A DNA stretch of 64,000 nucleotides from an uncultured Gammaproteobacteria bacterium (GTDB lineage Bacteria > Patescibacteriota > Microgenomatia > UBA8517): NCBI GenBank assembly GCA_964458085.1, contig CAYWFF010000001.1, positions 890 to 64,889 on the forward strand, read 5' to 3'. A model generated the notes under the pieces. That model was not told the DNA's origin, did not search any database, and was given only the letters and a program-made list of their open reading frames with translations. Positions 38,701-56,990 of this stretch are shown in pieces. A program made the position numbers and the translations under genes. The stretch's first letter is position 1. Each line of letters begins with the position of its first letter.

Positions 38701-38765
38701 TCATTCATCTTAGCTTTCAAATGTTCTACTTGTAAATAGCCTAAGGATTGTAATATGATGACTCA

Positions 38766-39974: not shown

Positions 39975-39977
39975 AGA

Positions 39978-40103: not shown

Positions 40104-40928
40104 ATGACGTACAGCGAACACAAAGAACTCCCTCATATTACTACCTGCCGTTTTTTGGAAACTTGGCAAGGCATAAATCCCAACCGTTTAATCGCCGAAC
40201 TAATATCAGTAAACAATGAAACACATAGGAATCCTGACCCTTATCATTTCAGTTTGAGACAGGGAAAATTGATAGATCCCGAAACTGGAAAACCTATAAC
40301 TGATTTTATTTCTGATGGGGTTGAGTTAGAGGTAGTTTTAAAATTACAGGATTGGGCTAACAAAAAAGATGCAGGCCTCGCCTATTGGGTAAGCCCGAGA
40401 CTTGTGGATGTATATCCAAGTGAAAAGTTAATCATTCACAGAATCGCATATACTCTGACCGGCGAAAAAATTGTTTTGAATAGTGCAATTCTTTTTGAAG
40501 CAGAACTTGATAACCCCGAAACTCTTAGGGATACACTTTTTGAATCAGATGATACAGAAGAAAATATTCTTAAGTTATTGGCTTGGGTTCAGGAAGTGTC
40601 AGGAGAAGCAGTGAATTTAACTTCTCACAAAACACATAAAGACCAGGCTCAGTACTTTGCCAAACAAATCATAAATGGGGTGGATCATTCCCAGATTATT
40701 CAAGAAATGCTTCAAACAGGATTTTTAGGTGAATTCTCAATCAGTTGTAAGACGGTAAATAACCCAGCCAGTTTTTCAAATTATATTCTCTCCCGAGCTG
40801 CAATAAATTCTATCGAGACTAGTGAAGGAAAGTATGTAGAAAAATGTGGCAATTGCGGAAAAGAAATTAAAGCAGTTATCAGAAAAGGCTATAAATGCAG
40901 CTGCGGAGGTGTATATGAGGGCTGCTAA
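40104..40928 (+). CDS. uncharacterised cytoplasmic protein with C-terminal Cys4 zinc ribbon, under cobalamin-riboswitch control
   Basis: 274 aa, no TM, C-terminal CGNCGKEIKAVIRKGYKCSCGG; no known adenosyltransferase/Cob motifs seen. Confidence 0.5.
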   Translation: MTYSEHKELPHITTCRFLETWQGINPNRLIAELISVNNETHRNPDPYHFSLRQGKLIDPETGKPITDFISDGVELEVVLKLQDWANKKDAGLAYWVSPRLVDVYPSEKLIIHRIAYTLTGEKIVLNSAILFEAELDNPETLRDTLFESDDTEENILKLLAWVQEVSGEAVNLTSHKTHKDQAQYFAKQIINGVDHSQIIQEMLQTGFLGEFSISCKTVNNPASFSNYILSRAAINSIETSEGKYVEKCGNCGKEIKAVIRKGYKCSCGGVYEGC

Positions 40929-41072: not shown

Positions 41073-41385
41073 TCCCCGGTAGCTCAGTGGTAGAGCAGGA
41101 AGCTGTGAAGTGACGCAGCCTTCAACAGAGATGTTGAAGAGAAAATTGGGTGAATTGCGGGAAGCCTAAAGCTAAAGCTAAGGTAATCCGCAGCCAAGAC
41201 CTATTTGATATTATCAAACAGGTAAGGTTCAGAGACTAGGTGATTACACCCAGAGTCGAGTCTGACTCGACGAGAGCGCCCAACACCCTACCCTTTTAGG
41301 AAGGGTGATGAGATAGTCCACGCTATATGGAAACATATGGATCAGTGTAACTTCAAGGTCGTAGGTTCGAGCCCTACCCGGGGAG
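41073..41385 (+). tRNA. tRNA-Asn(GUU) interrupted in the anticodon loop by a group I intron
   Basis: exon 1 41073-41106 (UCCCCGG UA GCUC AGUGGUA GAGC A GGAAG CUGU) + exon 2 41348-41385 (UAA CUUCA AGGUC GUAGG UUCGAGC CCUAC CCGGGGA G); 7-bp acceptor, U1-A72, G73, body closely resembles bacterial tRNA-Asn; splice junction chosen by exon-terminal U / intron-terminal G and P1 pairing GCUGU/GCAGC. Confidence 0.7.
41107..41347 (+). ncRNA. group I self-splicing intron (241 nt)
   Basis: canonical core elements readable: P (GAAUUGCGGGAAG), Q (AAUCCGCAGCC), R (GGUUCAGAGACUAG), S (AGAUAGUCC); terminal G; 5' exon ends in U. Confidence 0.75.
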
Positions 41386-42876
41386 CACATTAGTACGATA
41401 TTCTGGCAAAAGCAGTACATCGTAAGGTTTTTTGAGGCGAAAATCGAGTTTTCCGTCTTTCAAAATAAGGTTCTCACCGAGGTCGAGAATCAAATCACGT
41501 TTTTCTTCCTTTGTCCCATTCTCCAATCTTTCTTTAGCTGAAAACGCATTATCGAGATATCGTGTGCACATTTCCAACCAAGTATCGGCTGAGTAATCAT
41601 TATCTTCCAACTTTTCTTTGATAGACTTTTTCTCATTGAGAAGTTCTGACTTCTGCTCCAGAAACTCTTCCTTAGTTAGTTCTTGATCTGCTCTCATCCT
41701 GACCAGATACTTAATTCGAGTTTGGATGGCATTATATTGATTCTGTAAATATCTTGCTCGTTTGGAAAACTTTTCTACTTCTTCTTGGTATTTGGCTTTG
41801 AATAACTCAATACCTAATTTCCATGTCTCTTCATCAATCTTGATCTGCACCATGTTTTCGAGCAGAAGTTTTTCTAATCTTTTGCCTGTTATTGCTTGTT
41901 GTTTGCAAATACCTCTTCTGTGAGTGCAATGGTGGTAAGTATAGACAACTGTTCTGTTGGTACGTTTGAAATACTTTGTTTTGACTGTTGTTGTGATTTG
42001 GCAGCCACAATCGCCACAAGTAATCAATCCGTTATAGGTATGCTCCCATACTTTCAATTTAGGCCGAGAACGGAGTTGTAATGCCATTTGCACATCCTCA
42101 AACAACTTCTTGGTTATTAGTGGTTCATACGTACCTTCAAACAACTCGCCATTATGGTGGAAGTATCCATAATAAACTATGCAGTTTAGAATGTTGTGTA
42201 CATGGCTTTTACTGATTTTCTTACCTCGCTTAGTTCGTAATCCTTTATCGTAAAGATGTTTGGCAATCTTTGAGAGGGGGTTACCTTCTTTCGCCATTTG
42301 AAAAGCCTGTTGAATCAATGGGCCTTCAAACGGATGTGGCCTCATAATTCGTTGTCCTCGAATACCAAAGCCTTCATATCCAACTATAGCTGGTCTGGGA
42401 TACTCACCACGTTCGCACTTATGATTTAGTCCTCGTTTTACGTTTTGACTTAGATTTCTTGAATACTGATTAGCCATCCCAAAGTGGATTTGCAGAATCA
42501 GGTGATCTGATTCCTGTGTATAGACAGAACCAGTTGCTGTTCTAATTTCCTTGAGCACACCATCTTGGAGGAGTTGTAAGATCATTCCTCCTTCTTCTGG
42601 ATTACCACAAAGACGATCTTCTTTCCAACAAAGAAAAGCATTTGCTTTTCCAGTCTTTATCAACTGGATTGCCTTATCAAAGTCTGGTCTGTTGTGAGGC
42701 TTGAAAGCTGATCTACTCTCAGAGAATCGGTATTTGACTCTGAGTCCTTCTCGTTTTTCAACCTTTACATTTTCAGCATGTTGATCTTTGAGAGAAGCTA
42801 CTTGTCGCTCTTTCGCTTCGGACGATTTGCGACCATATTCTATATGCACAATTTCATTATCTATACTCATATTCAT
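41374..42876 (-). CDS. large serine recombinase (integrase)
   Basis: N-terminal YGRKSSEAKERQ catalytic Ser motif, recombinase domain, C-terminal CGDCGC...HHC zinc ribbon + coiled coil; 500 aa. Confidence 0.8.
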   Translation of the reverse strand: MNMSIDNEIVHIEYGRKSSEAKERQVASLKDQHAENVKVEKREGLRVKYRFSESRSAFKPHNRPDFDKAIQLIKTGKANAFLCWKEDRLCGNPEEGGMILQLLQDGVLKEIRTATGSVYTQESDHLILQIHFGMANQYSRNLSQNVKRGLNHKCERGEYPRPAIVGYEGFGIRGQRIMRPHPFEGPLIQQAFQMAKEGNPLSKIAKHLYDKGLRTKRGKKISKSHVHNILNCIVYYGYFHHNGELFEGTYEPLITKKLFEDVQMALQLRSRPKLKVWEHTYNGLITCGDCGCQITTTVKTKYFKRTNRTVVYTYHHCTHRRGICKQQAITGKRLEKLLLENMVQIKIDEETWKLGIELFKAKYQEEVEKFSKRARYLQNQYNAIQTRIKYLVRMRADQELTKEEFLEQKSELLNEKKSIKEKLEDNDYSADTWLEMCTRYLDNAFSAKERLENGTKEEKRDLILDLGENLILKDGKLDFRLKKPYDVLLLPEYRTNVLPG

Positions 42877-42908: not shown

Positions 42909-43457
42909 TTACAGTGATGGTTCCTCCTTATTACTCTCTCCTAAACTCTCCTCTATATCTCTAATATCTTCCTCAGATAAACCCAATTCACCCATAGAAG
43001 GAAAATTAGAGCTTTGAGGGCTGTTTTGAGATGACTTCCTTTGCATTTCTGCAATAAAATAATCCTCTTTTTCAATTTGTGTATGCAAGGTTGCAAATAA
43101 TTCTTTCATTATTGATTCAGGGAACTTAGCAAAGATTTTGATCCACTCTTTTTCAAAAGCATAATAATTGGTAATGATGGTCAGTCCATTTTTTTCGCTG
43201 AGAAGTCCCAATTTGATAAGTTCTTTACGCCTTCTATGAACTGTTGAAATACTACAGTTCCACGCTTTGGCTAATACTTGATCGTCACGGATGATTACTC
43301 TGTAATTTTCGTGTCTTCGATCAAAATCAGCTTGCATAACAAAGGCAATATAAGCACCTAACTGAGTAAAACCAAAATCTGGATGATTGAGAAGGAATTG
43401 GACACCTCGAAGAACCGAAATGTATCCGATAAAATTAGGTTTGTATTGAATCTTCAT
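42909..43457 (-). CDS. putative HTH DNA-binding protein
   Basis: CSISTVHRRRKELIKLGLL helix-turn-helix-like segment. Confidence 0.35.
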   Translation of the reverse strand: MKIQYKPNFIGYISVLRGVQFLLNHPDFGFTQLGAYIAFVMQADFDRRHENYRVIIRDDQVLAKAWNCSISTVHRRRKELIKLGLLSEKNGLTIITNYYAFEKEWIKIFAKFPESIMKELFATLHTQIEKEDYFIAEMQRKSSQNSPQSSNFPSMGELGLSEEDIRDIEESLGESNKEEPSL

Positions 43458-43479
43458 ATCAATCTGTCACAAATATCAA

Positions 43480-43725
43480 TTACCTTTCTGCGAACAAGCG
43501 ATCCTTGAGAAATCGCATGTTCATGCTGTATTGCTTTACAGGCTGTTTGAGTTCTCCAGAAAAATAGGCACTTGTTATTTCTTCTGACCCTTGTGAATCA
43601 AAAACAAACCAGTAGAAGTTTGCTTCTCGCTCAAGTCGAATTAGTTTGATTCCTGCTGTTAGCAAAGCTGCTGCATGGGCTAAATCCTTAGTAAATGTTT
43701 CTTTTGAATTACTGTTTGTTTGCAT
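43480..43725 (-). CDS. hypothetical small protein
   Basis: 81-aa ORF in recombinase-proximal module. Confidence 0.3.
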   Translation of the reverse strand: MQTNSNSKETFTKDLAHAAALLTAGIKLIRLEREANFYWFVFDSQGSEEITSAYFSGELKQPVKQYSMNMRFLKDRLFAER

Positions 43726-43912
43726 ATTCCATCCTCCATCTAAACTTGAATGTATGTTCTACAAATGAAACAAGATTCTCAGCAATGGTGATAACTTCTA
43801 AATCGGAGAGGGGGCGTTGATACTTTGGCTCGTACATTTTTCTGACTTTCTGTTGCAGTTCGTCAGTGAGCCATTTCGGAGCAATGATAGTTTTATTTGA
43901 TTTCTTATTCAT
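43709..43912 (-). CDS. hypothetical small protein
   Basis: 67-aa ORF overlapping previous by 17 bp. Confidence 0.3.
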   Translation of the reverse strand: MNKKSNKTIIAPKWLTDELQQKVRKMYEPKYQRPLSDLEVITIAENLVSFVEHTFKFRWRMEYANKQ

Positions 43913-43921
43913 CTGTTACCC

Positions 43922-44800
43922 TTGCTCGAAAAATTGTTTCCGAGCGATTACACAAAGGGTAACAAGAGAAGAACTCAAAGTAACTTGAGGTTTGGTGTGG
44001 TGGGCATTATTCTTGTTTTAGTAATAGGTGGATGGTACTTGTTCACTTCTCGTAATCAGGTAATGCTTTCAACCGAAGAACAAATAAAGCAATTAGAAGA
44101 AAAAATCGCTTCTGATCCTCAATATCAGGACAGAAGATCACAGACATACAAGGATGCACAGAACCAGTTGTGTTTGTTGAAAGCTCGTCCTACCGATCAA
44201 CGAGAAAAAGCAATTACTTCAATAAAGGCTTTCATTGATGATGAAAATGCCAAGGTTGATTTTTCCTGTGGAGAGTTTAGAAGGCCAGCATTTTTAGGAG
44301 CCTCACAAGCAGAGAGATATTTAGTAGATAACAACGAAATTATCATCAATACAGCTACGAATCATGTCGCTGAGATACCTGTTCAGGATAACTGGGTATA
44401 TCAAAAGGACGGAACACGTTTTGGTAATACATCTTCAAATCTACCCTTATATAGCCAGACAGAGATTGAGGAATTAGCCAAGAACTTTCTGACTAAACAT
44501 TCTCAAGCAATTGGGTCGATTGACCTCTCCTCACTAAAGTTTGAGATTGGCAAGAAGAGCAATGGGACCAGTTCAACAAATTATTTCCTTACTTGGAGTG
44601 GTGAACAGAAAAAAAGGAAATTACCAGAGCCTCAAAAGACATGCAGTAAGGATTTAGCACCAGAAGCAATCCAATACTACGAATCCGATGGAACGCCTTG
44701 TTACACAAATTACGAAGAAAACTATAACCCTCAACTAAGCATTGCATTTACGAACGAAGGGAGGCTTGTCAGTTTTAGTAGTTCTTTGGAGGTAGAGTAA
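43922..44800 (+). CDS. cargo protein 1: N-terminally anchored extracytoplasmic protein
   Basis: single TM (FGVVGIILVLVIGGWYLF) then about 240-aa domain. Confidence 0.4.
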   Translation: MLEKLFPSDYTKGNKRRTQSNLRFGVVGIILVLVIGGWYLFTSRNQVMLSTEEQIKQLEEKIASDPQYQDRRSQTYKDAQNQLCLLKARPTDQREKAITSIKAFIDDENAKVDFSCGEFRRPAFLGASQAERYLVDNNEIIINTATNHVAEIPVQDNWVYQKDGTRFGNTSSNLPLYSQTEIEELAKNFLTKHSQAIGSIDLSSLKFEIGKKSNGTSSTNYFLTWSGEQKKRKLPEPQKTCSKDLAPEAIQYYESDGTPCYTNYEENYNPQLSIAFTNEGRLVSFSSSLEVE

Positions 44801-45949
44801 ATGAAGTTCGGTATTAGAACACCATCACTCAAAAGGAGGATAGCAGCCAGAACATCTTGGAAACGCTTTGTAAGGCACAGTATGGGCTTGAAAGCTCCCA
44901 GAGGGATGGGAATAATAACAAACCCAAAAAAGGCTTTGTATAACAAAGTTTATAACAAGACATCTGTGAGTGTCGATGACTTGCTGAAAGGACATTCTCC
45001 TATTCCAGCAGTACCATCTCTCACACATAAACCAAATATGGAAGAACAACCACAAGCAGGTATACAAATAAACAATACAGGTAACATTATCAGGAGTTCG
45101 AGTCGAGCACTTACAGTTACAAGCAAGAACTTTCAGGAATTGCGACAGCAGATTACTGATATTTACAATCAGAGAGTTGAATTGCTCAAGAAACTGAGTA
45201 ACGCAAAGACTAAATTATTTTTACTTACCACTCTTCACTTTGGAAGCTATCTGTTCATCGTTGGTTTTTTCTACAAGAAAATTGCTGAAACAAGGAAGGC
45301 ACAGCAGGAAGTTGTCAAAGAATTAGAGAAACAAGTTTCCGAGACATTTGTGAAGTTGACTTTTGCAGACAAATCTCAATTAGAGAAAAGTTGGCTCAAT
45401 TGTATTGATGCTTTCAAAGAACTAATGAGTAGCGAGAAGATATGGGATATTACTTATGCTGAAAATGTGAATAGAGCACAGGCAAGAACAGTAGCCCAGA
45501 CAGCAACCAAACGTACTCCTATCACCAAAACTGAAAGGAATCTTGAGTTCATCAAGAGCGATTTGCCGTTCTTATTTCTTCCAAATGAAAATGGCCCAGA
45601 CCTATTTTTCTTTCCAACCTTTCTCCTTCTTTTCAAAGACAATCAGGAGTTTGGTATTTTCGACCTGAAAGAAATCAAAGCCAACATGAAATTATCAGGA
45701 TACATTGAGGAGGAGGGTGTTCCGAAGGACACTGAAATCATTCAACACACTTGGAAAAAGGCAAACAAAGATGGATCAATGGACAAGCGATTCAAAGGCA
45801 ATTATCAAATCCCAGTAGTGAAGTACGGAGATGTCACTTTTGAATCGGAGGGTGGTCTTGAGGAGTCATTCATGTTTAGCAACTTTGATGCTTTTACTGA
45901 TTTTTCAAAGACCTACGAATACCATGTTTCCTTATTAGGAAAACTCTAA
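44801..45949 (+). CDS. cargo protein 2: basic N-terminus, coiled coil, single mid-protein TM
   Basis: start overlaps stop of previous gene; TM LFLLTTLHFGSYLFIVGFFY. Confidence 0.4.
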   Translation: MKFGIRTPSLKRRIAARTSWKRFVRHSMGLKAPRGMGIITNPKKALYNKVYNKTSVSVDDLLKGHSPIPAVPSLTHKPNMEEQPQAGIQINNTGNIIRSSSRALTVTSKNFQELRQQITDIYNQRVELLKKLSNAKTKLFLLTTLHFGSYLFIVGFFYKKIAETRKAQQEVVKELEKQVSETFVKLTFADKSQLEKSWLNCIDAFKELMSSEKIWDITYAENVNRAQARTVAQTATKRTPITKTERNLEFIKSDLPFLFLPNENGPDLFFFPTFLLLFKDNQEFGIFDLKEIKANMKLSGYIEEEGVPKDTEIIQHTWKKANKDGSMDKRFKGNYQIPVVKYGDVTFESEGGLEESFMFSNFDAFTDFSKTYEYHVSLLGKL

Positions 45950-45951
45950 TT

Positions 45952-46713
45952 ATGTTTGGATTATTCAATAAGGCTAAGTTCTCCAGTGACGATGAAGCCT
46001 CTACAGCCCTTATGCGTATCTCCAGTATGGGTTTTGGAAGTGAGCAGGACTTCGCAAAAGATAACATGCTCAAGGTTCTGGCTGAAGTCGAACAGTACGC
46101 CAGCAATTTACAGAATCCGAAACTGGCTTATTGGTTAGGCATTGCGTGGAGAAACTTTACTGCTTGGCATATTCGAGGTGAGGATAGAAAAGAATATCTG
46201 GATAAAGCAGTGTTCTACTTTGATAAGGCCTTACAACTCTCAAAAGATACTTTACCAATTCAACTTCCACTTGAGAAACGACATAATGCCGATTACTTGG
46301 ACCAAATTGATATTGCTGGAGAGTTAGGGCACATGCTCGTTGAAGATGCTCCTATACGTGACTTGGATCGAGCAGAAAAGGTACTGCAATTCGTTTTTGA
46401 TAACACAGAGGAATACGAACCATGCCTCTGTGCCTATGCAGAGCTGTTTTATAAGCGTGGTGACTATGAGATATCTGCTGAGATCGGACTCAATATCAGC
46501 GACAGGTGTGCAAAGTCCCCAGAATGGAAGGATGATCCACCACCTGCACCATTGGGCATTGTTGGCAGTGCTTATAGGGCGTTAGCAAAACAGGCAAAGA
46601 AAGAGGGCAAAACCAACGAAGCAATCAAATGGTTCAAGAAAATGAAGGATTTGAAAGTCGCTTCCGACAATGATTTGAAAATCTTGGAAAAGCTGAAATC
46701 TGCTGGCCTATAA
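45952..46713 (+). CDS. cargo protein 3: soluble helical (TPR-like) protein
   Basis: 253-aa ORF 3 bp after previous. Confidence 0.4.
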   Translation: MFGLFNKAKFSSDDEASTALMRISSMGFGSEQDFAKDNMLKVLAEVEQYASNLQNPKLAYWLGIAWRNFTAWHIRGEDRKEYLDKAVFYFDKALQLSKDTLPIQLPLEKRHNADYLDQIDIAGELGHMLVEDAPIRDLDRAEKVLQFVFDNTEEYEPCLCAYAELFYKRGDYEISAEIGLNISDRCAKSPEWKDDPPPAPLGIVGSAYRALAKQAKKEGKTNEAIKWFKKMKDLKVASDNDLKILEKLKSAGL

Positions 46714-46759
46714 CTCTAATTGAAGTCTGTATCAAGTCTTGGTATAATTCCGATCAAAT

Positions 46760-47200
46760 ATGGCAGAACGACTACCAGCACCGATTAGTCCAGTTGACGC
46801 AATAAGATCAAGGGCTTTTATGGAAAGTTATATCAGGGTCATTCCATCTTTGATTCCTCCTGCAATTATGAATGAAGCACAGTCAATCGTTGCAGCTCAT
46901 AGGCCTGAAGGGGTGCTACCTGGCGAAGAACCTGTTTGTATGGCAGGTTTGAAGCCAAAAGATCACGGCTTTCTCAATGGTTTACATTTACGATCTAAGG
47001 ATGAGCAAAGAAAGATTTTTGCACAGAAAAGATCGGAGTATGCTGGTGACCCAGTAGCCCAGCAACAGATTGATGTTTACGATGGCGATACTGAGTACCA
47101 TGTCAAGATGAGGGAGTTTAGTGATGCTTTGAAATCAGGTAATTCCCAGAAGGAAGCAGAGTTAGACGCTTGGTTCAAGGAACATTATCCAAACATATAA
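46760..47200 (+). CDS. cargo protein 4: hypothetical
   Basis: 146-aa ORF. Confidence 0.35.
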   Translation: MAERLPAPISPVDAIRSRAFMESYIRVIPSLIPPAIMNEAQSIVAAHRPEGVLPGEEPVCMAGLKPKDHGFLNGLHLRSKDEQRKIFAQKRSEYAGDPVAQQQIDVYDGDTEYHVKMREFSDALKSGNSQKEAELDAWFKEHYPNI

Positions 47201-47201
47201 T

Positions 47202-48821
47202 TCAGTTGGCAAATGTGGGCGTGTAGTTATTTGACATAAGAAACTCTCGATAATAGTTTCCCACATAGTCAGTTAGTGCGAGCCAAGTATCACTTATCCG
47301 AACTAGCCTCAAATTTTCAAGTACTTTGAAGGCATCGGTATAAGTAACATTTACAACTTCTTTATCTTTTATCCAGATTTTGCATGCAAACCATCTTAAG
47401 AACTGTTTTTTCTCCTTTTTATTAAATGCTTTATATAGCTTGGGTAATTGCTTTAAGAATTTAATAATAGTATCTATTTTCTTGTCATCCAAGTTAGCTG
47501 AAGGCTTGGAAAGCTTTGCAATATCAGCCTCTACGGATTTAAGTTCATCCTTCAAAGGTAAATACTTCTTTTCAATTCTATCTTGAGGCATTACTTCTGC
47601 AATCATCTGATCTTCAAGTTTGTCCATTTTCTTTTCTATCACTGCTTTTCGGTCTTTCAGTGCCTTTGTTCGTGATGGAATATCATCTCCTTGTTCTTTC
47701 ATAACCTCTTCGAGCTCAGTTCTCAAGCCCTTGAAAAATCTCTCATCAAACTTGATGTTAGCCATAAACTTTTCTAATTGCTTATGAACTTTATCCATCG
47801 GAGCATAGGATTGTTTGCAAACCTTTCCTTTTCTTGAACCTAGACATCGATAATACTTAAAAACCCTTCCATCTGGTTTGACGTGTTGCTCACCAGACAT
47901 AAGAGTTCCACATTCATCACAAAAGACCAATCCTGCAAGAAACCAATTGTGTTTTCTTGACCTGTCAGCACCTTTGTTATGTTTAGCTAAGATTGCCTTA
48001 GACTTTTCTATATCTTCCATTGTTACTATTGATTTATGTTTACCGTCATACATTTTCCCACAATATAACACCTTTCCAGCATAGCGTACATCAGTAAGTA
48101 TTCTGTGAATATTGCTGGAACTAACTCTTTTTCCGTTCTTGGTTCTAAAGCCTTCTTGATACATTTCTTCTTCAAGGGAATAGATGGAGTGATTACCTGT
48201 ATGAAATCTTCTGAAAATTTCTTTAATAAAGTAGACTCTTTCTTTATCAATTTTCCAGGCAACGCCTTTTTTATAAGAGTTTAGATATCCAATGACTGCA
48301 ACTCCTGGTTGAAAACCTTTCTCTGCAAGTGCTACCATTGTTCTTTTTGTCTTCTGTCCTGTTATTTCCCTTTGAAGCTGATTTGCTCCAGCCATTACTA
48401 AGTCCACAAATTTACCAACTGGATCATCACCAAAGTTAGGTTGTTGTGTGGCTATTAGTTCAACACTGTGTTTTTTAAGAAACGATTTTACAGCTAAATG
48501 GTCTTGTGCATCTCTTGCGAATCTATCTGTTTCCTCTAACAAAACAATATCAACATCCTTATCTTTCTCACATCGCTCAAGCATTCTTGTAAATTCTGGC
48601 CTACCAGTTGTACTACCACCACTCTTGCCTCCGTCTTTATAGATTTCTAATATTCTCCAGTTATGTTCTCTTGCATATTTAACCAACCTATCTACTTGAT
48701 CATCTAGAGAATGTCCTTCCCGAACCTGTCTATCTGTGCTTACTCTTGCGTATATTAGACAGCTTTTGATTCTAGCTTGATCTTCTATATGAGAAATATT
48801 TGTTGTATATGTCATTTTCAA
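47202..48821 (-). CDS. large serine recombinase (second copy, distinct sequence)
   Basis: IYARVSTDRQ catalytic motif, recombinase domain, CDECG...YYRC zinc ribbon, C-terminal coiled coil; 539 aa. Confidence 0.8.
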   Translation of the reverse strand: MKMTYTTNISHIEDQARIKSCLIYARVSTDRQVREGHSLDDQVDRLVKYAREHNWRILEIYKDGGKSGGSTTGRPEFTRMLERCEKDKDVDIVLLEETDRFARDAQDHLAVKSFLKKHSVELIATQQPNFGDDPVGKFVDLVMAGANQLQREITGQKTKRTMVALAEKGFQPGVAVIGYLNSYKKGVAWKIDKERVYFIKEIFRRFHTGNHSIYSLEEEMYQEGFRTKNGKRVSSSNIHRILTDVRYAGKVLYCGKMYDGKHKSIVTMEDIEKSKAILAKHNKGADRSRKHNWFLAGLVFCDECGTLMSGEQHVKPDGRVFKYYRCLGSRKGKVCKQSYAPMDKVHKQLEKFMANIKFDERFFKGLRTELEEVMKEQGDDIPSRTKALKDRKAVIEKKMDKLEDQMIAEVMPQDRIEKKYLPLKDELKSVEADIAKLSKPSANLDDKKIDTIIKFLKQLPKLYKAFNKKEKKQFLRWFACKIWIKDKEVVNVTYTDAFKVLENLRLVRISDTWLALTDYVGNYYREFLMSNNYTPTFAN

Positions 48822-48840
48822 TACTTTTTCATAACTTTAA

Positions 48841-48925
48841 TGGCCGCCTGGTGAGCTCAACCCAATTGGTATGGATTGTCCAGACGGCCATCAAAAAAAC
48901 CAATTGGTTGTTGAACTCAATTTAA
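48841..48925. promoter_or_regulatory. imperfect inverted repeat (TGGCCGcCTGG / CCAGAcGGCCA) around a core with GAGCTC and CCAATTGG palindromes, upstream of recombinase 2; candidate att/regulatory site
   Basis: arms at 48841-48851 and 48880-48890; second CCAATTGG at 48900-48907. Confidence 0.3.
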
Positions 48926-48950
48926 TTGAAGCATAAATGTCAAATATTTG

Positions 48951-50546
48951 TCAACTCGCTCTTGCTTCAATATCTTCAAGCTCATTTTGAACCCATTCTT
49001 GGTTAACTTCAATGTCTTTGTTTAGCAAATACTTTTCTTTATTTTCTAATTCAAATTCCCAATGTCCCATTTCAACCGCCCGAAAAGTCTGAAGTATACT
49101 TTCCACATCTGAATTGTGTGTGTTAATAAACAATTCAATTTCACTTTTAGCTCGTTCAATAGTTCCAAAGGGATTTTTGGGATTACTGCTTAATAGCTCT
49201 CCATCATAATGATTATCACTAATTGTTTCTGTTAAAGCTATTCTTTCCTTTATCTCTTTAATTTTGTTTGTGGCATTAGTCACAAATTCTATAAGTGCAT
49301 CTTCATAATCTTTTTTGGATATTTTTACGTCTGCCATATCGCTTTTAAACCAATCTTTGTTTACTTTTACAGGTAACAAAGTAGTCAAAATTGTTACTAT
49401 AAATGATTGCTGTTGTCGGTATCTTTTAATAAGATATTCATCATGAGGGGAGGAGACAACAATAGCTTGTCTGCTTCTTTCTTCTTTTTCTGTAAGGTTT
49501 ATATCCCCTGGATATACAATACCCTTTGTGTCAGTGTACCTTAGCTCTATGCAGTCTTCACTTAGAGGGTTATAGCCTCTATCTTTTTCTCCAGGCTCTC
49601 CAGCATATTTCTGATATCTTCTATCCCAATCATAATAACTTCCAGCCTCAATACCTTCCACCTCTTTGATACTCCACTTTTTAGCTTTACGATCATAATG
49701 TCTAATCTTTCCTGTTGCTTTAACAAGCTCACCATCGATGACTGCTTTTTTTATCCTCTCTTTTTGTTCATCTATAGCTTTTTGCCAAGTTTCATACTCT
49801 TTCTTGCTTGGTTTTTCTAATGCATGTGCTTTTTCTTTTAGAACAATATCTTTAAGCTCATCATCTGACTTACCAACATACTCTTTATACTCTTTCCAAA
49901 GATAAGGCTCTTCACCTATCTTGTCTTTGAATCTCTTATAATTATCTGCTCCGTTTTTTAATCTATTTGTAGCTTTACTTATCAGCTCTTCTTTAGTTTT
50001 CCCATATCTGTCCATCCACCATAAATATTCATCCAAAAGTTCAAATTCTTCGTCTAGCTTTTCTTTTACTTTCAGCTTGTAGAATGCTTCTTGTTTGGCC
50101 AAACCATGCCTCCCATCTATTTGTAAAACCTCTTTTTTAATGGATTTTTTTGCCCTTTTAATCGCTTCGTTATATTCAGTTTTTGTCACAATTACAGGAA
50201 TATTTTCAACATACTCAATTGCTTTATTTAGAATTGGAGATATCGAAAGCAGATAAGTTAAAGGTGAAATTTGTTTTTTATATAAGTTTAATTCTAATAA
50301 AAGAATTTCAATTGTCGGTAGAAGTCTAGTCCACACTTCTTCTTTAAGGGAAATGTAGAAATTATATTTTTCAACTTGTTCATTTGGGCATGCTGAAACA
50401 ATAGTCTTTATTTGACTCTGAACCTCTGGAGGGAGCTCACCATTATTTACCTTGTCAAATGCTTCCATTTGAAGTTTGACTATTAGCTTTGCTCTTTCTT
50501 TTGGTGTCATGAATATAGACACTTTGTTTATATTTAGGTTTCTCAT
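48951..50546 (-). CDS. hypothetical protein (element-encoded)
   Basis: 531-aa K/E-rich ORF. Confidence 0.4.
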   Translation of the reverse strand: MRNLNINKVSIFMTPKERAKLIVKLQMEAFDKVNNGELPPEVQSQIKTIVSACPNEQVEKYNFYISLKEEVWTRLLPTIEILLLELNLYKKQISPLTYLLSISPILNKAIEYVENIPVIVTKTEYNEAIKRAKKSIKKEVLQIDGRHGLAKQEAFYKLKVKEKLDEEFELLDEYLWWMDRYGKTKEELISKATNRLKNGADNYKRFKDKIGEEPYLWKEYKEYVGKSDDELKDIVLKEKAHALEKPSKKEYETWQKAIDEQKERIKKAVIDGELVKATGKIRHYDRKAKKWSIKEVEGIEAGSYYDWDRRYQKYAGEPGEKDRGYNPLSEDCIELRYTDTKGIVYPGDINLTEKEERSRQAIVVSSPHDEYLIKRYRQQQSFIVTILTTLLPVKVNKDWFKSDMADVKISKKDYEDALIEFVTNATNKIKEIKERIALTETISDNHYDGELLSSNPKNPFGTIERAKSEIELFINTHNSDVESILQTFRAVEMGHWEFELENKEKYLLNKDIEVNQEWVQNELEDIEARAS

Positions 50547-50548
50547 GA

Positions 50549-50923
50549 TTATTTTCTTTTTACGGTCTTTCGTTGCATAAGAATACTTTCAATCATTTCA
50601 ATACGGCCATCTAAGTTTGCTGTTTCCATGGCTTTTAATGTATGGCTGCAAATATAAGCAATTGTGTTGGCTACATTAGGAGGTATAGAGCCGTTCCTTA
50701 CTCCATTTATAGTTTCCTCAAGAATCTCAACAACATCACTTGGCGTTTTTACATCTCGTTCTGGTAAAGATAATCTATCTCTTTTCGATGATTTTCCTCC
50801 TTTAACCACAGCCAAACTATGATCTTCTTTAGTGTCTGGGTTGTGAGCAAAGCAATAGTTCGATTTTTTCATAGCATTAGCACCACACCTTTCTCCGTTA
50901 GTTTTTGTATAAGTACATTTCAT
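50549..50923 (-). CDS. hypothetical protein with N-terminal Cys/His cluster
   Basis: MKCTYTKTNGERCGANAMKKSNYCFAH. Confidence 0.35.
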   Translation of the reverse strand: MKCTYTKTNGERCGANAMKKSNYCFAHNPDTKEDHSLAVVKGGKSSKRDRLSLPERDVKTPSDVVEILEETINGVRNGSIPPNVANTIAYICSHTLKAMETANLDGRIEMIESILMQRKTVKRK

Positions 50924-51435
50924 AAATTTCCTCCTTGTTTATTAGCAACTCTAATGGGGGTAGGGGGTAACTCTTCCTTCTTAGACCACTCGCAATCCTG
51001 TCCAAATATTTCCTTTACTGTGTCTAACAATTGATTTTCATCCATAAAATAAAGCATTTCTCGCTTTCTTCCTTCGTCTTCAATTCTTTCAATAAGTTTT
51101 AATGCTGCCTCGAATTTTTTAACTTTCTCTTTTTTCTCATCATCGTCAAGCAACGTTCTTTCTCCGATTTCTTTATCAAGAGTATCTGCAAACGTTTTAG
51201 CTTCTACATATCTTTCTAATAGAATCTCACCTGGCCATTCTTGTAAATATCTAACATCTTTATATTTTGCCTCGTTTTCAGCTTGTTCTATCAAGTCTGT
51301 CAGCCTTTTTTCAAGTGTTGCAATTGTTTCCATGCGTGCTCCTGCTTTTTTTGCTACCTTTATGTTTGATTTTGCCTGTTTAATAGCCTTGTTTAACTCA
51401 GTAGACATCTTTGTTGACGATTGGTAGACGTTCAT
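50920..51435 (-). CDS. hypothetical coiled-coil protein
   Basis: 171-aa ORF. Confidence 0.35.
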   Translation of the reverse strand: MNVYQSSTKMSTELNKAIKQAKSNIKVAKKAGARMETIATLEKRLTDLIEQAENEAKYKDVRYLQEWPGEILLERYVEAKTFADTLDKEIGERTLLDDDEKKEKVKKFEAALKLIERIEDEGRKREMLYFMDENQLLDTVKEIFGQDCEWSKKEELPPTPIRVANKQGGNL

Positions 51436-51638
51436 GTTTATTTAATCCTCCTTGTTTTCGGAACAAATTGATAATTCGGGTAGACGTTAGTATTTATAGA
51501 GATATACAAGAAGCACTCACCAAAATGACATCTGCCTACTAGTATTTGTCTAGAAACCGTAATGTCTACCACTTTTCTTGTTTTATCCCTATTTTTAGGT
51601 GTATTTGTTGTTTTCATATGTCTACCTAATGTCTACCC
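51422..51638. repeat. array of GGTAGACG / CGTCTACC motifs (2 in one orientation, 3 in the other)
   Basis: tGGTAGACG 51422, gGGTAGACG 51468, aATGTCTACC 51561, ATGTCTACC 51618, ATGTCTACCC 51629. Confidence 0.45.
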
Positions 51639-53881
51639 AAACATCTCTAGATTGGGAATTCCATATCTGCGTAATAAATCTTTGACAATGCTGACTTTGA
51701 CTTTATACCTACAATAACCTCTTACTTTTCTTCCTCTTATACCAAATCTTTTAAGTGCTGCACCTACACCTCTACTGGTAAAGTACTGTCTTTGATCTAT
51801 TTCAAGATATTCGCTTGCTTTATCTTTTATCTCTTTGTTTTCAAGTTCTACTGTTTCCTGTTGACCAACAAGTTCTCTTAATGCAATTAGGACTGCGGAG
51901 TCAAAATCATCAAGGTCGACACTAGAGGTTTCTTCTGCTCTTCTTATTGCCTCATCTCTTATGTTTTCAAAAGTTCCTGGAAGCTCTGTATCTATTATTT
52001 TTGCAATAGAGAGTAGGGGTTTCCAAAGCTCGTTTTGGCGGTTAAGTAATGCGTTTACTTTAGAATCTGAGCTATATATTTTTGCTATCTTTTCGGAATA
52101 ATCCAGTGAAAATGAGTATAAAAGATTTCTTAGATAACTCCAGTCTTCAGACCCTTCTGTAACAGCGGTATTTCCTTTATCTGGGTTATTGGTTCTTACC
52201 ATTGTTAGGGTAATTGACCTGTCTTCTAACACATCATCAAGTCCTGATATGTTGGCAATGGCTTTAGGGCTATAGATTTCAAACGCCTCAATATCAAAGT
52301 TGCCTTTTTTGTTTTTTGTGGTTCTGTATGCAGGTGCTCCTCTTTTGTAGCCTGAATTTAACAATTCCCTTAATTCTTGTTTTCTTGTCTTATCTGAAAG
52401 CTGTTCACCTTCATCAAGTGCCAGTGTCGGTCTTTTTGCTTCAACCAATCTAAAGAGCACTGCAGGAGAGATATTACTTGATATGATTGCGTTAAATGCT
52501 AATTTTTCAATAATAAGAAGTGTTTTGGTTTTTCCACTTCGTTTTACTCCAACAAGGTATAAATACGGATACGCATCAAAAACAGGGAAACAATATGTTC
52601 CCATCAGCCAAAGAGCAATAATATCTGCATCATTCTCATCTCTGAAATCTACAAATTTTTTTAACACTTCTTTTATTTCTATAAAGGCAAGGGAAGGAGA
52701 AACTTTATCTTTATTGACTAGAAACTTGTTAATATCTTCTACTTTCCATCTCTGAATGTTGTTTGGAACAAGTGATACGTCACGTAGACTGTATGTCTTA
52801 TTTTCAAAATCTATATAACCATGTCGGTTTTTGTCTATTCCAACTTGTTTATTGCTAGTAATTACAACTACAGCTTTAGATTTCTCATCATCTACTTGAA
52901 CTGGTAGCTCGAATGTATAAAACAATTTGCTGTCTTTATAGTCTACGGCAGGATGAATTTTCGAATCTGACTCTTCATTTAGTAGCTTCACTTTAGGTTT
53001 ATGAGACTTAGCTTCATCAAGCAATTTTTGAAAGTCATCAGCAGAATGTCCTTGCTTCACAAAAAAGTCTGTTAAGTCTACTTTTTCTTCACCGTTTTTA
53101 GGAAGTTTAACAATCCTGGCTCTGTCACCAATAAAACTTGCTACTTTTTTAGCACCTGATACACCTGCTTCATCAGTATCAAAACAAATATATATTTGTT
53201 TTACACTTTCGAACTCTTTTACCCACTCTTTTTTAAAAGTACTTGCACCTGCAGTACTGCTTACGGAAGGAAAGCCGTTTTGCGTGGCTATTATAGCGTC
53301 AAACTCACCTTCACAGATAACTATGTAGGAATGGTTATTCTCTAGTGCCACACTATTAAAGATCGAGGCTTTACCACCTTTTTCATTCCAATATTTTTGT
53401 CCCTTATTCTTTTTTGGATCACGGCGGTGACGAAGGTTTACTAAAACATTATTAACAAACACGGGAAGTACGATACTTTCTCCATCCCATCCGATTCTAA
53501 ACTTGTTTATGGTTTCTTCAGTAAGTCCACGCTCTTTGAGTAAATACTCTTTTATACTGTTGGGTATGTTTTGATGATAGTTGTCAACATTTTTAATGCT
53601 AAAGTTTTTTTTCTTTAGCTTTACTTTATATTCAATTCCCCTGTTAATTACCTGTTTTTCAAGTTGAGGCAGGTTATTATCTCCAAGTTTTTCAGTTATG
53701 TTCTGCCAACTGCCTTTAGCTCCACAGCGATGACAAATATAACATCCATCAGCGTTGTTGATATATAAATGCTTTTTTTATCATCACAGAATAAGCATTG
53801 TATTTGTGCTTCTTTGCCTTCGGACACAATTTTGTGTGGTATACTTTTTGCTGACAAGTATTGTTCTACGTTTTGATACAT
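51633..53881 (-). pseudogene. DnaG-type primase (zinc-binding + Toprim) fused to P-loop NTPase, frameshifted within an A7 homopolymer (about 53773-53779)
   Basis: Toprim VICEGEFDAIIATQNGF and Walker A GVKRSGKTKT in 51633-53462 ORF; upstream in-frame extension encodes ...KKHLYINNADGCYICHRCGAKG up to a TAA at 53778-53780; the 53696-53971 ORF in another frame encodes ...QCLFCDDKKSIYI; joining at the A-run restores a CxxC-x16-CxxCHxCG primase zinc ribbon. Confidence 0.6.
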
Positions 53882-53931
53882 AAGTCTTGGCGGAGGAGAG
53901 GAAGGGTTAGTCCCTCTCCTCCAAAGAAAAA

Positions 53932-54333
53932 CTATTTTTTGGCTGGCATTACTTTTGATATGTCCTGCCAACCTTGTTCATCTCCTGGTCGGTCTTCAAC
54001 CAGAATTTGACAATTTGTCTCCACTAACTCCTCAAGGTCAACCTCTTCACTTGGACTAGGTTCTCTGCCTAATAATGCAGTTACTATACGAAACAGTTTT
54101 GAACTGGTATCAGGTGTTTTACCTTTTGTGAGCTTTGCAGAAGCTGCAAGAGAGCGTTTTGTACCTTCTTGTTCTCCAGAGTTAATTTCAAACTCTAAAA
54201 GAACATAAGAACCATATTTACCCTCCTCTTTATGCTCCCATCCAGTGAATTTTGCAGGATACACTCCTACAGGAATTGGTTCTGGAGCTTGTGGCTCTTT
54301 AACAGTAAATTTTCCTTCAGCCATTGCCGTCAC
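53932..54333 (-). CDS. hypothetical protein
   Basis: 133-aa ORF. Confidence 0.35.
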   Translation of the reverse strand: MTAMAEGKFTVKEPQAPEPIPVGVYPAKFTGWEHKEEGKYGSYVLLEFEINSGEQEGTKRSLAASAKLTKGKTPDTSSKLFRIVTALLGREPSPSEEVDLEELVETNCQILVEDRPGDEQGWQDISKVMPAKK

Positions 54334-54646
54334 CTCCTTTCGATGGCTCTTGATCTAATAAATCTGATGATTGTTCTTCTGGACGTAAGAGTTGTGTAGC
54401 CTTTACTGATATTGCAGTCTGGATTTTTTCTCCAACCTTTTCATTTATGGGGTAGAAGATAGGAATCTGCTTTCCATTCTTAAGAACCTTTGTTGGATAT
54501 ACGCACCTGAACCCTGAACCATCTCTTTTGGTGAAGACTGCGATATTTCCTACGAAATATTTACTGTCTAACACACAGCTTGCAAAAAATGTTAGTCCTC
54601 CTTTTGCTTTAATCGGTAATAGTTCTATTTCAGTTATTTTTGTCAT
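54317..54646 (-). CDS. spoVG: SpoVG-family nucleic-acid-binding protein
   Basis: ITEIELLPIKAKGGLTFFASCVLDSKYFVGNIAVF...FRCVYPTK...IFYPINEKVGEKIQTAI follows the SpoVG pattern (VTDVRL..GxxRAxASITLDxEFVVHDIRVI..FVAMPS...HPIN). Confidence 0.55.
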   Translation of the reverse strand: MTKITEIELLPIKAKGGLTFFASCVLDSKYFVGNIAVFTKRDGSGFRCVYPTKVLKNGKQIPIFYPINEKVGEKIQTAISVKATQLLRPEEQSSDLLDQEPSKGGDGNG

Positions 54647-54878
54647 ACTTTTTTACCTCCTCTTCAGCAAGTTTTCTGTCATACCACTCAAGCAGAAGTT
54701 CTGCTAGTGGCCTAAATGATCCACTTGCGGTCTCAATTTCTTTCTTCTTTATTTTCTGGACTTCTTGTCCAACAATTTTTTTAAACTTTTTAGTATTCAT
54801 TGTTTCACTTATTCACTACTTGACTGTTTATAGAGTAAAGGAGGAAAAGTGAAAATATAGGTAAAGTACTGAAGTAAA

Positions 54879-54984
54879 AATGAAGATTTTGGTTCACTGT
54901 AGAATAGATGATTTTATTGATGAGCGTAAAGTATGAAGATTTCGGTTCAAATTTTTATCTTCATCCGATCAAAATATGAAGCTT
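54879..54984. repeat. iteron-like direct repeats ATGAAGATTT(T/C)GGTTCA x2 (+ partial third)
   Basis: copies at 54879-54897 and 54932-54949, partial at 54975-54984; between 614-aa gene and SpoVG gene. Confidence 0.4.
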
Positions 54985-56827: not shown

Positions 56828-56990
56828 TTCTTCAATACCTTTCTTGGCAGGTATTTTACCATTTTTTCGATCTCAATCTTTAGCATTATTTGTATTATAC
56901 AAAGCCGTTCTTTTTTCTTGATACAGATAACTTTACAAAATCTGTTTTTCCATATGATTTAAGAATTAATTTTTTATACAATTAAAATCA

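What the first reader, a model, noticed from the sequence alone, without database searches (positions are those of the whole stretch)
43922..47200. Four-gene cargo block sandwiched between the two recombinases
Four tightly packed + strand genes (gaps of 0-46 bp) sit between the two recombinase genes. They encode a signal-anchored extracytoplasmic protein, a protein with basic N-terminus, coiled coil and a single mid-protein TM, a TPR-like soluble protein and a small soluble protein. None carries a motif I recognise. Recombinase-flanked positions are classic hotspots for anti-phage defence or other accessory cargo, so this is a candidate uncharacterised system, for example a membrane-effector abortive-infection module.
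Basis: inference. Interest (0 to 1): 0.55.

Follow-up and report, generated by a model that had tools for sequence, protein, structure and literature searches.

The report
Mosaic cargo of a small integrative element
The four genes are real, but they are not one four-gene system: three form a small conserved membrane-linked module of unknown function, built around a widespread uncharacterised prophage-cargo protein, and the fourth is an unrelated add-on gene shared with phages.

Summary
Observation confirmed. Four tightly packed + strand genes (g1-g4, 43922-47200) lie between two large serine recombinase genes. All four have homologues and evolve under purifying selection. None matches Pfam, NCBIfam or PADLOC.

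The "sandwich" comes from two adjacent mobile elements. Element A (about 5.9 kb) starts with the recombinase at 41374-42876, next to an intron-containing tRNA, and carries g1-g4. The second recombinase (47202-48821) belongs to element B, which is inserted at a conserved 54-nt site just past g4.

The four genes are not a conserved unit:
- g2 is a widespread, mostly solitary prophage/MGE cargo family (phrog_17982; 298 GTDB species; 122 of 5,426 E. coli genomes).
- g3 (TPR-like) follows g2 in about 20 close relatives and is fused to it in P0061.
- g1 joins them in only 5 loci. Its fold is weakly PepSY/YpeB-like.
- g4 has its own promoter and also occurs in CPR phage genomes.

No function is shown. 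My best guess (about 0.35) is a membrane-associated exclusion or defence module made of g2-g3, with or without g1. This is an ordinary to moderately interesting candidate, and the E. coli homologue makes it testable.

The parts
41073..41386 (+). tRNA gene interrupted by a group I intron (intron about 41097-41340). It is the integration site of element A.
   Evidence: Rfam Intron_gpI scores 119 bits. The exons were read from the sequence. ARAGORN misses the gene. The same intron-tRNA precedes the rec500 homologue in L134, and the tRNA 3' end does so in L135.
41374..42876 (-). rec500, the large serine recombinase of element A. Its last ~13 nt overlap the tRNA 3' end.
   Evidence: Pfam Resolvase, Recombinase and Zn_ribbon_recom. 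It is 83-92% identical to the recombinases of the g1-g3-bearing loci L134 and L135.
42909..43912 (-). Element A backbone: a 182-aa HTH/DnaD-like protein (42909-43457), an 81-aa DUF5659 protein (43480-43725) and a 67-aa protein (43709-43912).
   Evidence: phrog_186 DnaD-like at 9e-6 and weak HTH_36. DUF5659 at 1e-5. These proteins are conserved at 66-87% identity in L134 and L135.
43985..44800 (+). g1: a signal-anchored extracytoplasmic protein with four conserved Cys. The ORF is open from 43922, but the likely start is TTG 43985. It may contain tandem PepSY-like repeats.
   Evidence: Three close homologues of 271-272 aa. The alignment and the DNA breakpoint fall at the start codon. The hydrophobic anchor has KD 2.25. 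The AF2 model is poor (pLDDT 57). The top Foldseek hit is the YpeB C-terminal PepSY domains, E 6e-3, prob 0.98. No Pfam PepSY hit.
44801..45949 (+). g2: the core cargo protein. It has an N-terminal basic domain (aa 1-63, 44801-44989), a helical hairpin with a hydrophobic tip (aa 139-160, 45215-45280), and a conserved alpha/beta C-terminal domain (aa ~184-382, 45350-45946).
   Evidence: phrog_17982 at 2e-46, plus N-terminal phrogs 3374/10934/29766/4721. 274 homologues. 298 GTDB species and 47 IMG/VR contigs. AF2 pLDDT 80. No significant PDB or BFVD fold match; the best weak hits are PH domains.
45952..46713 (+). g3: a TPR-like cytoplasmic partner of g2.
   Evidence: It follows g2 directly in every locus where it is at least 60% identical. 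It is fused to the g2 core in P0061. Its profile hits consensus TPR/PPR chains at 4e-22. It has 120 representative clusters.
46720..46748 (+). Promoter-like element (TTGAAG-17-TGGTATAAT), 11 nt upstream of the g4 ATG.
   Evidence: Consensus scan. The same cassette lies upstream of g1 in L134-L137.
46760..47200 (+). g4: an independent small soluble add-on (moron-type) gene.
   Evidence: 17 homologues. In L139-L141 and L147 it sits in a CPR phage genome (SU10 capsid, GpA terminase) as a lone + strand gene. In L142 and L143 it sits in another context. It is absent from the other g1-g3 loci.
47230..47283 (.). Conserved ~54-nt block that marks the junction between element A and element B. It is a recurrent serine-recombinase insertion site.
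   Evidence: The block is present downstream of g3 in L134, L135, L137 and L138. L137 (recombinase present) and L138 (no recombinase) are identical up to ...GTGCGAGC and then diverge.
47202..48821 (-). rec539, the large serine recombinase of element B. Its last ~27 codons read across the junction into the 54-nt block.
   Evidence: Pfam Resolvase 1e-29, Recombinase and Zn_ribbon_recom. The block lies inside its 3' end.
47284..56900 (-). Element B: a low-GC (0.33-0.36) ~9.6-kb element with a Toprim/DUF3631 primase, a SpoVG-like gene and unknown genes. Host genes resume at 56991.
   Evidence: GC profile. Pfam on its ORFs, with Na/Ca and Na/H exchangers from 56991.

Best explanation
The block is the accessory cargo of a ~5.9-kb integrative element (element A) in a CPR/Patescibacteria-type genome. 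Element A comprises the serine recombinase rec500, a small replication/regulation backbone, and this cargo. It sits at an intron-containing tRNA gene. The second recombinase belongs to a different element (B), inserted at a conserved 54-nt site at the cargo end.

The cargo is a mosaic.

(i) g2-g3 is a functional pair. g2 is a cytoplasmic protein held at the inner face of the membrane by the hydrophobic tip of a helical hairpin. It has a basic N-terminal domain that other homologues swap for a different one, and a strongly conserved alpha/beta C-terminal domain of unknown activity. g3 is a TPR-like adaptor that binds g2.

(ii) g1 is a lineage-specific third partner. It is anchored in the membrane with a disulfide-containing, possibly PepSY-like ectodomain.

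(iii) g4 is an unrelated gene with its own promoter, shared with CPR phages.

Inferred and not shown: g2-g3, with or without g1, acts at the cell envelope for the benefit of the element. The most likely role is excluding or aborting infection by competing phages or elements. In that model g3 senses a signal, g2 acts at the membrane, and g1 contacts the wall or wall enzymes.

The structural and architectural part is well supported (about 0.85). The exclusion/defence role is a guess (about 0.35).
For: Element structure:
- The stop codon of rec500 overlaps the 3' end of the intron-containing tRNA.
- The same tRNA + recombinase + backbone + g1-g3 arrangement occurs in L134 and L135.
- A 54-nt block is shared by 5 loci. 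L137 and L138 form an occupied/empty pair that diverge right after it.
- Element B has lower GC and its own primase, and host genes resume at 56991.

Mosaic nature of the cargo:
- The g1-g2-g3 trio occurs in L134, L135, L137 and L138, and partly in L136.
- The g2-g3 pair occurs in L001/2/3/9, L007, L010, L012, L014 and L149-L159.
- P0061 is a natural g2-g3 fusion.
- g2 occurs alone elsewhere, with no conserved neighbour in 133 loci.
- g4 occurs in phage genomes and has a conserved promoter cassette.

Membrane association of g2 is achieved in three different ways across the family:
- a hydrophobic hairpin tip (KD 1.5-2.2) in the CPR subfamily;
- a W/F/R/K-rich amphipathic segment in DUF4236-type members;
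- a separate C-terminal TM followed by an SH3b domain in P0098.
AF2 places the hydrophobic stretch at the turn of an antiparallel helical hairpin.

MGE-cargo context of the family:
- It matches phrog_17982.
- 47 IMG/VR contigs carry it, often at a prophage end.
- The E. coli homologue lies beyond the tail-fibre genes of an icd-site lambdoid prophage, next to a DUF2971 protein that matches the defence candidate PDC-S31.
- The N-terminal domain recurs in lysogeny modules of Streptococcus SM1 and Lactococcus TPW22, between int and the repressor. That is the position where Sie proteins are known to be encoded (PMC7693887, PMC3952083).

g1:
- The best fold hit is YpeB, a membrane-anchored PepSY protein that restrains the lytic transglycosylase SleB (bioRxiv 10.64898/2026.06.01.729290).
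- A 31%-identical homologue lies beside a YceG/MltG-like gene in phage L139.
Against: - No experiment, known domain or catalytic motif ties any of the four proteins to phage resistance.
- PADLOC has no model for them or for their distant homologues.
- Immediate neighbours of g2 homologues in 75 species are highly heterogeneous: 136 Pfam families in 146 proteins, many of them housekeeping. Only about 8-10 are defence-like.
- A g2 homologue sits next to the terminase in Microcystis phages, which fits any phage-beneficial role.
- The g2 fold has no significant match (E > 0.07), so 'PH-like' is only a hint.
- The g1 model is low-confidence (pLDDT 57), its YpeB hit is above E 1e-3, and Pfam PepSY does not hit.
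- In this window g1 has lost the promoter and ATG seen in its relatives, so its expression here is uncertain.
- It is not settled whether the 54-nt block is the end of element A or flanking host DNA.
Confidence: 0.4

Rival explanations
1. All four genes form one new anti-phage defence system (a membrane-effector abortive-infection module) located in a recombinase-flanked hotspot.
For: The genes are packed tightly on one strand. They are MGE cargo with no known function. One membrane-anchored and one membrane-associated protein sit beside a TPR-like candidate sensor.
Against: g4 has its own promoter and a separate distribution in phage genomes, and it is absent from every other g1-g3 locus. g1 is present in only 5 loci. 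The two recombinases belong to two different elements. There is no PADLOC hit.
Confidence: 0.05
2. The module controls cell-wall enzymes rather than providing defence. On this reading g1 is a YpeB-like PepSY regulator that holds a peptidoglycan hydrolase in check, and g2-g3 is its cytoplasmic control unit. The purpose would be lysis timing, envelope remodelling, or attachment of the episymbiotic CPR cell to its host.
For: The best fold hit for g1 is the YpeB PepSY domains. The g1 homologue in phage L139 lies between a YceG/MltG-like gene, small membrane proteins and a secreted nuclease, an arrangement that looks like a lysis cassette. One g2 homologue carries an extracellular SH3b wall-binding domain. 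PepSY proteins regulate wall enzymes (bioRxiv 10.64898/2026.06.01.729290; PMC10653890).
Against: There is no wall hydrolase in element A. g2 is mostly solitary and is found in many phyla without g1. The g1 model and its PepSY assignment are weak. In sequenced phages the g2-type genes sit in lysogeny or accessory regions, not in lysis cassettes.
Confidence: 0.2
3. The genes serve the element's own maintenance or spread, for example replication control, partition, addiction or transfer, rather than conflict with other phages.
For: Element A is tiny and otherwise carries only a recombinase and three small backbone genes. g1-g3 travel with that backbone in L134 and L135.
Against: g2 homologues occur without any such backbone in Bacteroidota chromosomes, E. 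coli lambdoid prophages and Microcystis phages. The cargo slot is variable between otherwise related elements. No nucleic-acid enzyme or NTPase motif was detected.
Confidence: 0.1

Closest known systems
phrog_17982 / RefSeq 'DUF4236 domain-containing protein' (uncharacterised prophage cargo family)
   Same: The g2 core (aa 105-372) matches phrog_17982 at 2e-46. It aligns over the whole conserved C-terminal domain with DUF4236-bearing homologues, including an E. coli prophage protein.
   Different: g2 lacks the DUF4236 N-terminal domain (Pfam negative). Instead it carries a different basic ~60-aa domain (phrog_3374 and others). It has a hydrophobic hairpin tip and a dedicated TPR-like partner. 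The family itself has no known function.
Prophage superinfection-exclusion and abortive-infection proteins encoded in lysogeny modules (Sie2009, Ltp, P22 SieA, lambda RexAB)
   Same: Both are MGE cargo genes for membrane-associated proteins, placed beside integrase or regulator genes. The g2 N-terminal domain recurs between int and the repressor in SM1 and TPW22. For Sie loci see PMC7693887, PMC3952083 and PMC10883804. RexAB is cited from my own knowledge.
   Different: There is no sequence or fold similarity to any of these proteins, and no phenotype has been tested. g2 has at most a re-entrant anchor, not a multi-pass channel like RexB. This is a resemblance of context only.
YpeB (membrane-anchored PepSY protein that restrains the lytic transglycosylase SleB)
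   Same: g1 has the same layout: an N-terminal anchor, then a helical region, then repeated alpha+beta units. YpeB's C-terminal domain is the top Foldseek hit (E 6e-3, prob 0.98).
   Different: The model is low-confidence and Pfam PepSY does not hit. No SleB-like gene is adjacent in the window, and the organism is not a spore former.
Large-serine-recombinase integrative elements (phiC31/Bxb1-type integrases, tRNA-targeting islands)
   Same: Both flanking genes have the three-domain LSR architecture. The integration site is a tRNA gene, and no long direct repeats are seen, as expected for serine integrases.
   Different: Each recombinase gene reads across its own attachment junction: 13 nt for rec500 and about 82 nt for rec539. 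The two elements lie in tandem. The tRNA target contains a group I intron.

Membership tests
phrog_17982 (g2 core family) | Significant full-length match to the family HMM | tested here: met
   E 2.3e-46, aa 105-372 against profile positions 103-374 of 390. 26 invariant and 12 nearly invariant columns are shared across 23 homologues.
DUF4236 (PF14020) | N-terminal DUF4236 domain | tested here: not met
   There is no PF14020 hit in g2. 25 of 72 aligned homologues have it, so g2 shares the core but not this domain.
TPR repeat proteins (g3) | Repeats scoring above Pfam gathering thresholds | tested here: inconclusive
   TPR_2 scores 22.1 bits against a cutoff of 27; TPR-S, TPR_1 and PPR hits are all sub-threshold. 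The family profile, however, hits consensus TPR/PPR chains at 4e-22 to 1e-7 over aa ~150-240.
PepSY / YpeB-like (g1) | PepSY domain detectable by sequence or by a confident fold match | tested here: inconclusive
   No Pfam PepSY hit at E up to 5 for the 5 family members. The Foldseek top hit is 5boi (YpeB C-terminal domain), E 6e-3 and prob 0.98, but it comes from a pLDDT 57 model with TM about 0.3.
Known or candidate anti-phage defence systems (PADLOC-DB v2) | Match of any component to a defence-system HMM | tested here: not met
   g2, g3 and g4 have no hits at E up to 1. g1 has only a chance-level MTase_III hit (0.0027, 14.6 bits). The E. coli, Bacteroidota and fusion homologues also have no hits. 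Newer DefenseFinder models could not be run.
Known or candidate anti-phage defence systems | Enrichment next to known defence genes | tested here: inconclusive
   Of 146 immediate neighbours in 75 species, a few are defence-like (HSDR_N x5, mad3/mad8, AbiEii, ThsB, PtuA/GajA-like) among 136 Pfam families. No background control was possible.
Conserved multi-gene operon ('system') | The same gene set co-occurs across diverged genomes | tested here: not met
   This is not met for the four-gene set. It is met only for g2-g3 (about 20 loci plus a fusion) and for g1-g2-g3 (5 loci).
Large serine recombinases (flanking genes) | Resolvase catalytic domain + Recombinase domain + zinc ribbon | tested here: met
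   Both flanking proteins have all three domains.

The most novel reading that the evidence does not exclude
g2 defines a new, phylogenetically wide family (CPR, Bacteroidota, Enterobacteria, cyanophage) of membrane-associated anti-phage or exclusion proteins. It has a previously undescribed C-terminal fold and interchangeable N-terminal modules (basic domain, DUF4236 or zinc ribbon). In CPR elements it has recruited a TPR sensor (g3) and a PepSY-like envelope partner (g1).
Probability: 0.3. Interest if true: 0.6.

Novelty: new member of a known kind. Interest (0 to 1): 0.38.

Why it matters
If g2(-g3) is an exclusion or defence function, it would add a widespread family that current defence catalogues miss. 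Members occur in E. coli prophages, where testing is easy. It would also be one of the few functional leads for mobile-element cargo in CPR/Patescibacteria, whose phage biology is almost unexplored. Whatever the function turns out to be, the locus shows that "recombinase-flanked" blocks can arise from tandem element insertion. It also shows that tight packing does not make a system.

Tried and rejected
- Pfam, NCBIfam, PADLOC and PHROGs on all four proteins gave only the phrog hits for g2.
- PDB profile searches for g1, g2 and g4 found nothing.
- Foldseek of the g2 model against PDB and BFVD gave no hit better than E 0.07.
The 4-sequence run gave a poor model.
- The search for related loci with the broad g3 alignment failed because no block was conserved enough.
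- I looked for att direct repeats or a displaced tRNA fragment and found none. That is expected for serine recombinases.
- A broadly conserved 'upstream antisense' ORF cluster next to g2 homologues was rejected as an artefact lying opposite the DUF4236 coding region.
- P0063 looked like a possible second kind of g2-g3 fusion, but its extension is unrelated to g3.
- Literature searches for DUF4236 and for CPR serine-recombinase elements returned nothing useful.
- I saw no EF-hand or other catalytic motif when reading the conserved TWKKANKDGSxDKRF...NYQIP segment (my reading).
Full report
**1. Observation**

The window holds four + strand ORFs:
- g1: 43922-44800
- g2: 44801-45949
- g3: 45952-46713
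- g4: 46760-47200

The gaps between them are 0, 2 and 46 nt. The flanking - strand genes, 41374-42876 (rec500) and 47202-48821 (rec539), each carry Resolvase, Recombinase and Zn_ribbon_recom domains. Both are therefore large serine recombinases.

All four ORFs are real genes:
- g2 has 274 detectable homologues, g1 has 3, g4 has 17, and g3 has 120 representative clusters.
- In pairwise codon comparisons dN is 0.02-0.3 while dS is saturated, or dN/dS is 0.03-0.12.
- None of the four matches Pfam, NCBIfam or PADLOC at meaningful scores.

- Homologues of g1 are 271-272 aa. DNA and protein alignments place the start at TTG 43985. The promoter and ATG seen in relatives are replaced by unrelated sequence in this window.
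- The hydrophobic stretch of g2 (aa 139-160, KD 1.8) lies at the turn of a predicted antiparallel helical hairpin.
- g4 has its own promoter-like element.

**2. Setting: two elements, not one hotspot**

Rfam finds a group I intron at 41097-41340. Reading the flanks shows a tRNA gene at about 41073-41386, whose 3' end overlaps the rec500 stop codon. ARAGORN misses it.

The arrangement of intron-tRNA, rec500 homologue (83-92% identity), the same small backbone genes (HTH/DnaD-like, DUF5659 and a 67-aa protein) and then g1-g2-g3 recurs in L134. The same arrangement is seen in L135, where only the tRNA 3' end is on the contig. The block is therefore cargo of a small tRNA-targeting serine-recombinase element, element A.

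A ~54-nt sequence at 47230-47283 lies inside the 3' end of rec539. It is conserved downstream of g3 in L134, L135, L137 and L138. L137 and L138 are about 95-97% identical across g1-g3 and identical through this block up to GTGCGAGC. After that point L137 continues into a different serine recombinase, and L138 continues into unrelated genes. This is an occupied/empty pair.

In the window, the sequence to the right of the block is a ~9.6-kb, lower-GC region. It has its own Toprim/DUF3631 primase and a SpoVG-like gene. Ordinary host genes (Na/Ca and Na/H exchangers) resume at 56991.

So rec539 belongs to a second element, B, inserted at the cargo end of A. The "sandwich" is incidental. Whether the 54-nt block is the end of A or flanking host DNA remains open.

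**3. Co-occurrence**

I ran tblastn of the four proteins against 160+ fetched loci. The results:
- The g1-g2-g3 trio occurs in L134, L135, L137 and L138, and partly in L136.
- The g2-g3 pair occurs in L001/2/3/9, L007, L010, L012, L014 and L149-L159.
- Every g3 that is at least 60% identical sits directly after a g2.
- More distant g3 relatives (34-42% identity) stand alone. One of them, in L160, is next to a large N6-methylase/restriction-like gene.
- P0061 (561 aa) is a natural fusion of the g2 core with g3, at 63% identity over 241 aa. This supports a physical partnership.
- g2 itself is otherwise solitary. Clustering all ORFs within 4 kb in 133 loci found no conserved neighbour.
- g4 is absent from every other g1-g3 locus.

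The 73-77% identical g4 homologue lies in a CPR phage genome that has an SU10-type capsid gene and a GpA terminase. There it is a lone + strand gene between - strand blocks. IMG/VR also holds this contig as L147.

The g3-g4 spacer carries TTGAAG-17-TGGTATAAT. This is the same cassette that precedes g1 in L134-L137.

The block is therefore a mosaic: a g2-g3 core, a lineage-specific g1, and an independent g4.

**4. The g2 family**

The g2 core matches phrog_17982 (2e-46). Its first 63 residues match four other PHROGs of unknown function.

The family is found in 298 GTDB species. These are mostly Bacteroidota, plus CPR, some Proteobacteria and others. It is also found in 47 IMG/VR contigs, often at the very end of a predicted prophage. 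It is present in 122 of 5,426 complete E. coli genomes.

In E. coli 2012C-4502 the homologue is annotated "DUF4236 domain-containing protein". It lies beyond the tail-fibre genes of a lambdoid prophage at icd. Its neighbours are a DUF2971 protein, which matches the PADLOC candidate PDC-S31, and a DUF3800 protein. Two Microcystis phages carry a homologue next to the terminase.

The N-terminal module varies across the family: the basic domain seen here, DUF4236, a zinc ribbon, or nothing. The basic domain also occurs in other proteins:
- as a stand-alone 62-67-aa protein (Paenibacillus phage Diva gp30, Lactococcus TPW22 orf3);
- as the N-terminus of Streptococcus SM1 gp2.

Two of these three genes lie between the integrase and the repressor.

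The C-terminal domain has many invariant polar residues (W215, R229, E303, D310, N322, D328, R330, N334 and others). This suggests a specific binding or catalytic site.

The AF2 model is good (pLDDT 80, core above 90). It has no significant match in PDB or BFVD. The best weak hits are PH domains.

Membrane association appears in three alternative forms:
- a hydrophobic hairpin tip in the CPR subfamily;
- a W/F/R/K amphipathic segment in DUF4236-type members;
- a separate C-terminal TM followed by an SH3b domain in P0098.

Taken together with the C-terminal fusion to cytoplasmic g3, this argues that the g2 core is cytoplasmic and sits at the inner face of the membrane. This is an inference.

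**5. g1, g3 and g4**

g3: the profile hits consensus TPR/PPR proteins (4e-22) over its C-terminal ~90 residues. "TPR-like" is therefore reasonable, although single Pfam hits are below threshold.

g1: it has an N-terminal anchor, a helical region, four conserved cysteines and two helix-plus-sheet units. The AF2 model is poor (pLDDT 57). Its top PDB hit is the C-terminal PepSY domains of YpeB (E 6e-3, prob 0.98). Pfam PepSY does not hit. YpeB is a membrane-anchored protein that holds the lytic transglycosylase SleB inactive (bioRxiv 10.64898/2026.06.01.729290; PMC6660665). A 31%-identical g1 homologue in phage L139 lies beside a YceG/MltG-like gene, small membrane proteins and a secreted nuclease. 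This is a lead only.

g4: no detectable relatives of known function.

**6. Function**

Nothing here demonstrates a function.

Points in favour of an exclusion or defence role for g2-g3 (with or without g1):
- It is MGE cargo.
- It recurs at prophage ends and in lysogeny modules, where Sie proteins are typically encoded (PMC7693887, PMC3952083, PMC10883804).
- It is associated with the membrane.
- It has a repeat-protein partner that could act as a sensor.
- It has a defence-candidate neighbour in E. coli.

Points against:
- There is no PADLOC match for any family member tested.
- The immediate neighbours of g2 homologues in 75 species are heterogeneous and largely housekeeping, with only a few defence genes. 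I had no background control.

I put about 0.35 on exclusion/defence and about 0.2 on a wall-enzyme or lysis-control role. I put about 0.1 on element maintenance and about 0.05 on the original four-gene-system idea. The remainder is unknown.

**7. Comparison and novelty**

By sequence, g2 is a member of phrog_17982, the "DUF4236 protein" family, but it lacks the DUF4236 domain itself. In context it resembles lysogeny-module exclusion genes, with no homology to any of them. The flanking genes are ordinary large serine recombinases.

This is a new, uncharacterised member of a known kind: accessory cargo of integrative elements. It is not a categorically new entity.

**8. Verdict**

Interest is moderate to low (0.38). 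The main value is that a widespread, catalogue-absent prophage cargo family, with a conserved partner in CPR elements, can be tested directly through its E. coli homologue.

Noticed in passing
window 41073-41386: A tRNA gene is split by a group I intron (Rfam 119 bits), so ARAGORN reports no tRNA in the whole window. It is the integration target of element A. In L134 the same tRNA has a longer intron holding a 120-aa ORF, which may be a homing endonuclease.
   Followed up: partly
window 38751-38868 and 39963-40082: Two cobalamin riboswitch aptamers on the + strand, just above the gathering score. One lies upstream of small membrane-protein genes (38900-39340, 39348-39974). The other lies upstream of a 274-aa Cys-rich protein (40104-40928) with no Pfam match.
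   Followed up: no
window 47202-47285 and 41374-41386; L137 2990-3084: Both serine recombinase genes, and the unrelated one in L137, read across their own attachment junction. Their C-terminal codons (about 27 for rec539, about 4 for rec500) are therefore supplied by the target side and would change on excision.
   Followed up: partly
window 47284-56900: Element B is a ~9.6-kb low-GC element. It has a serine recombinase, a Toprim/DUF3631 primase, a SpoVG-like gene and several large unknown proteins (531 aa, 614 aa), but no capsid genes. It may be a satellite-like or replicative island.
   Followed up: partly
window 43913-43985 versus L134/L135 (about 4.4 kb extra): Relative to L134 and L135, the window lacks a segment between the 67-aa gene and g1. 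In those loci the segment holds a tyrosine integrase, MgsA_C, DUF6788 and DUF4352 genes. The breakpoint falls exactly at the g1 start codon and removes its promoter.
   Followed up: partly
P0061 and P0062 (proteins); L155, L156, L159: Natural g2-core + g3 fusion proteins of 561-565 aa exist in metagenomes, one of them labelled as a Bacteroidetes MAG. P0063 (612 aa) carries a different C-terminal extension with a zinc ribbon.
   Followed up: partly
L148 (E. coli NZ_CP027440.1 128551-147555): The accessory end of an icd-site lambdoid prophage holds the g2 homologue, a DUF2971 protein matching the PADLOC candidate PDC-S31, a DUF3800 protein and a 209-aa unknown. This looks like a compact candidate defence islet.
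   Followed up: partly
L001 9942-11916; also L008, L010, L012: A 474-aa plus 178-aa gene pair of unknown function recurs downstream of g2 or g3 in several CPR elements. It has no PADLOC hits and appears to be another mobile cargo cassette occupying the slot that g4 occupies here.
   Followed up: no
L139 7893-11236: A CPR phage carries a putative lysis cluster: a holin-like 2-TM protein, a YceG/MltG-like 329-aa protein with a signal anchor, an 87-aa membrane protein, the g1-like protein, and a membrane-anchored SNase. An MltG-type enzyme serving as a phage lysin would be unusual.
   Followed up: no
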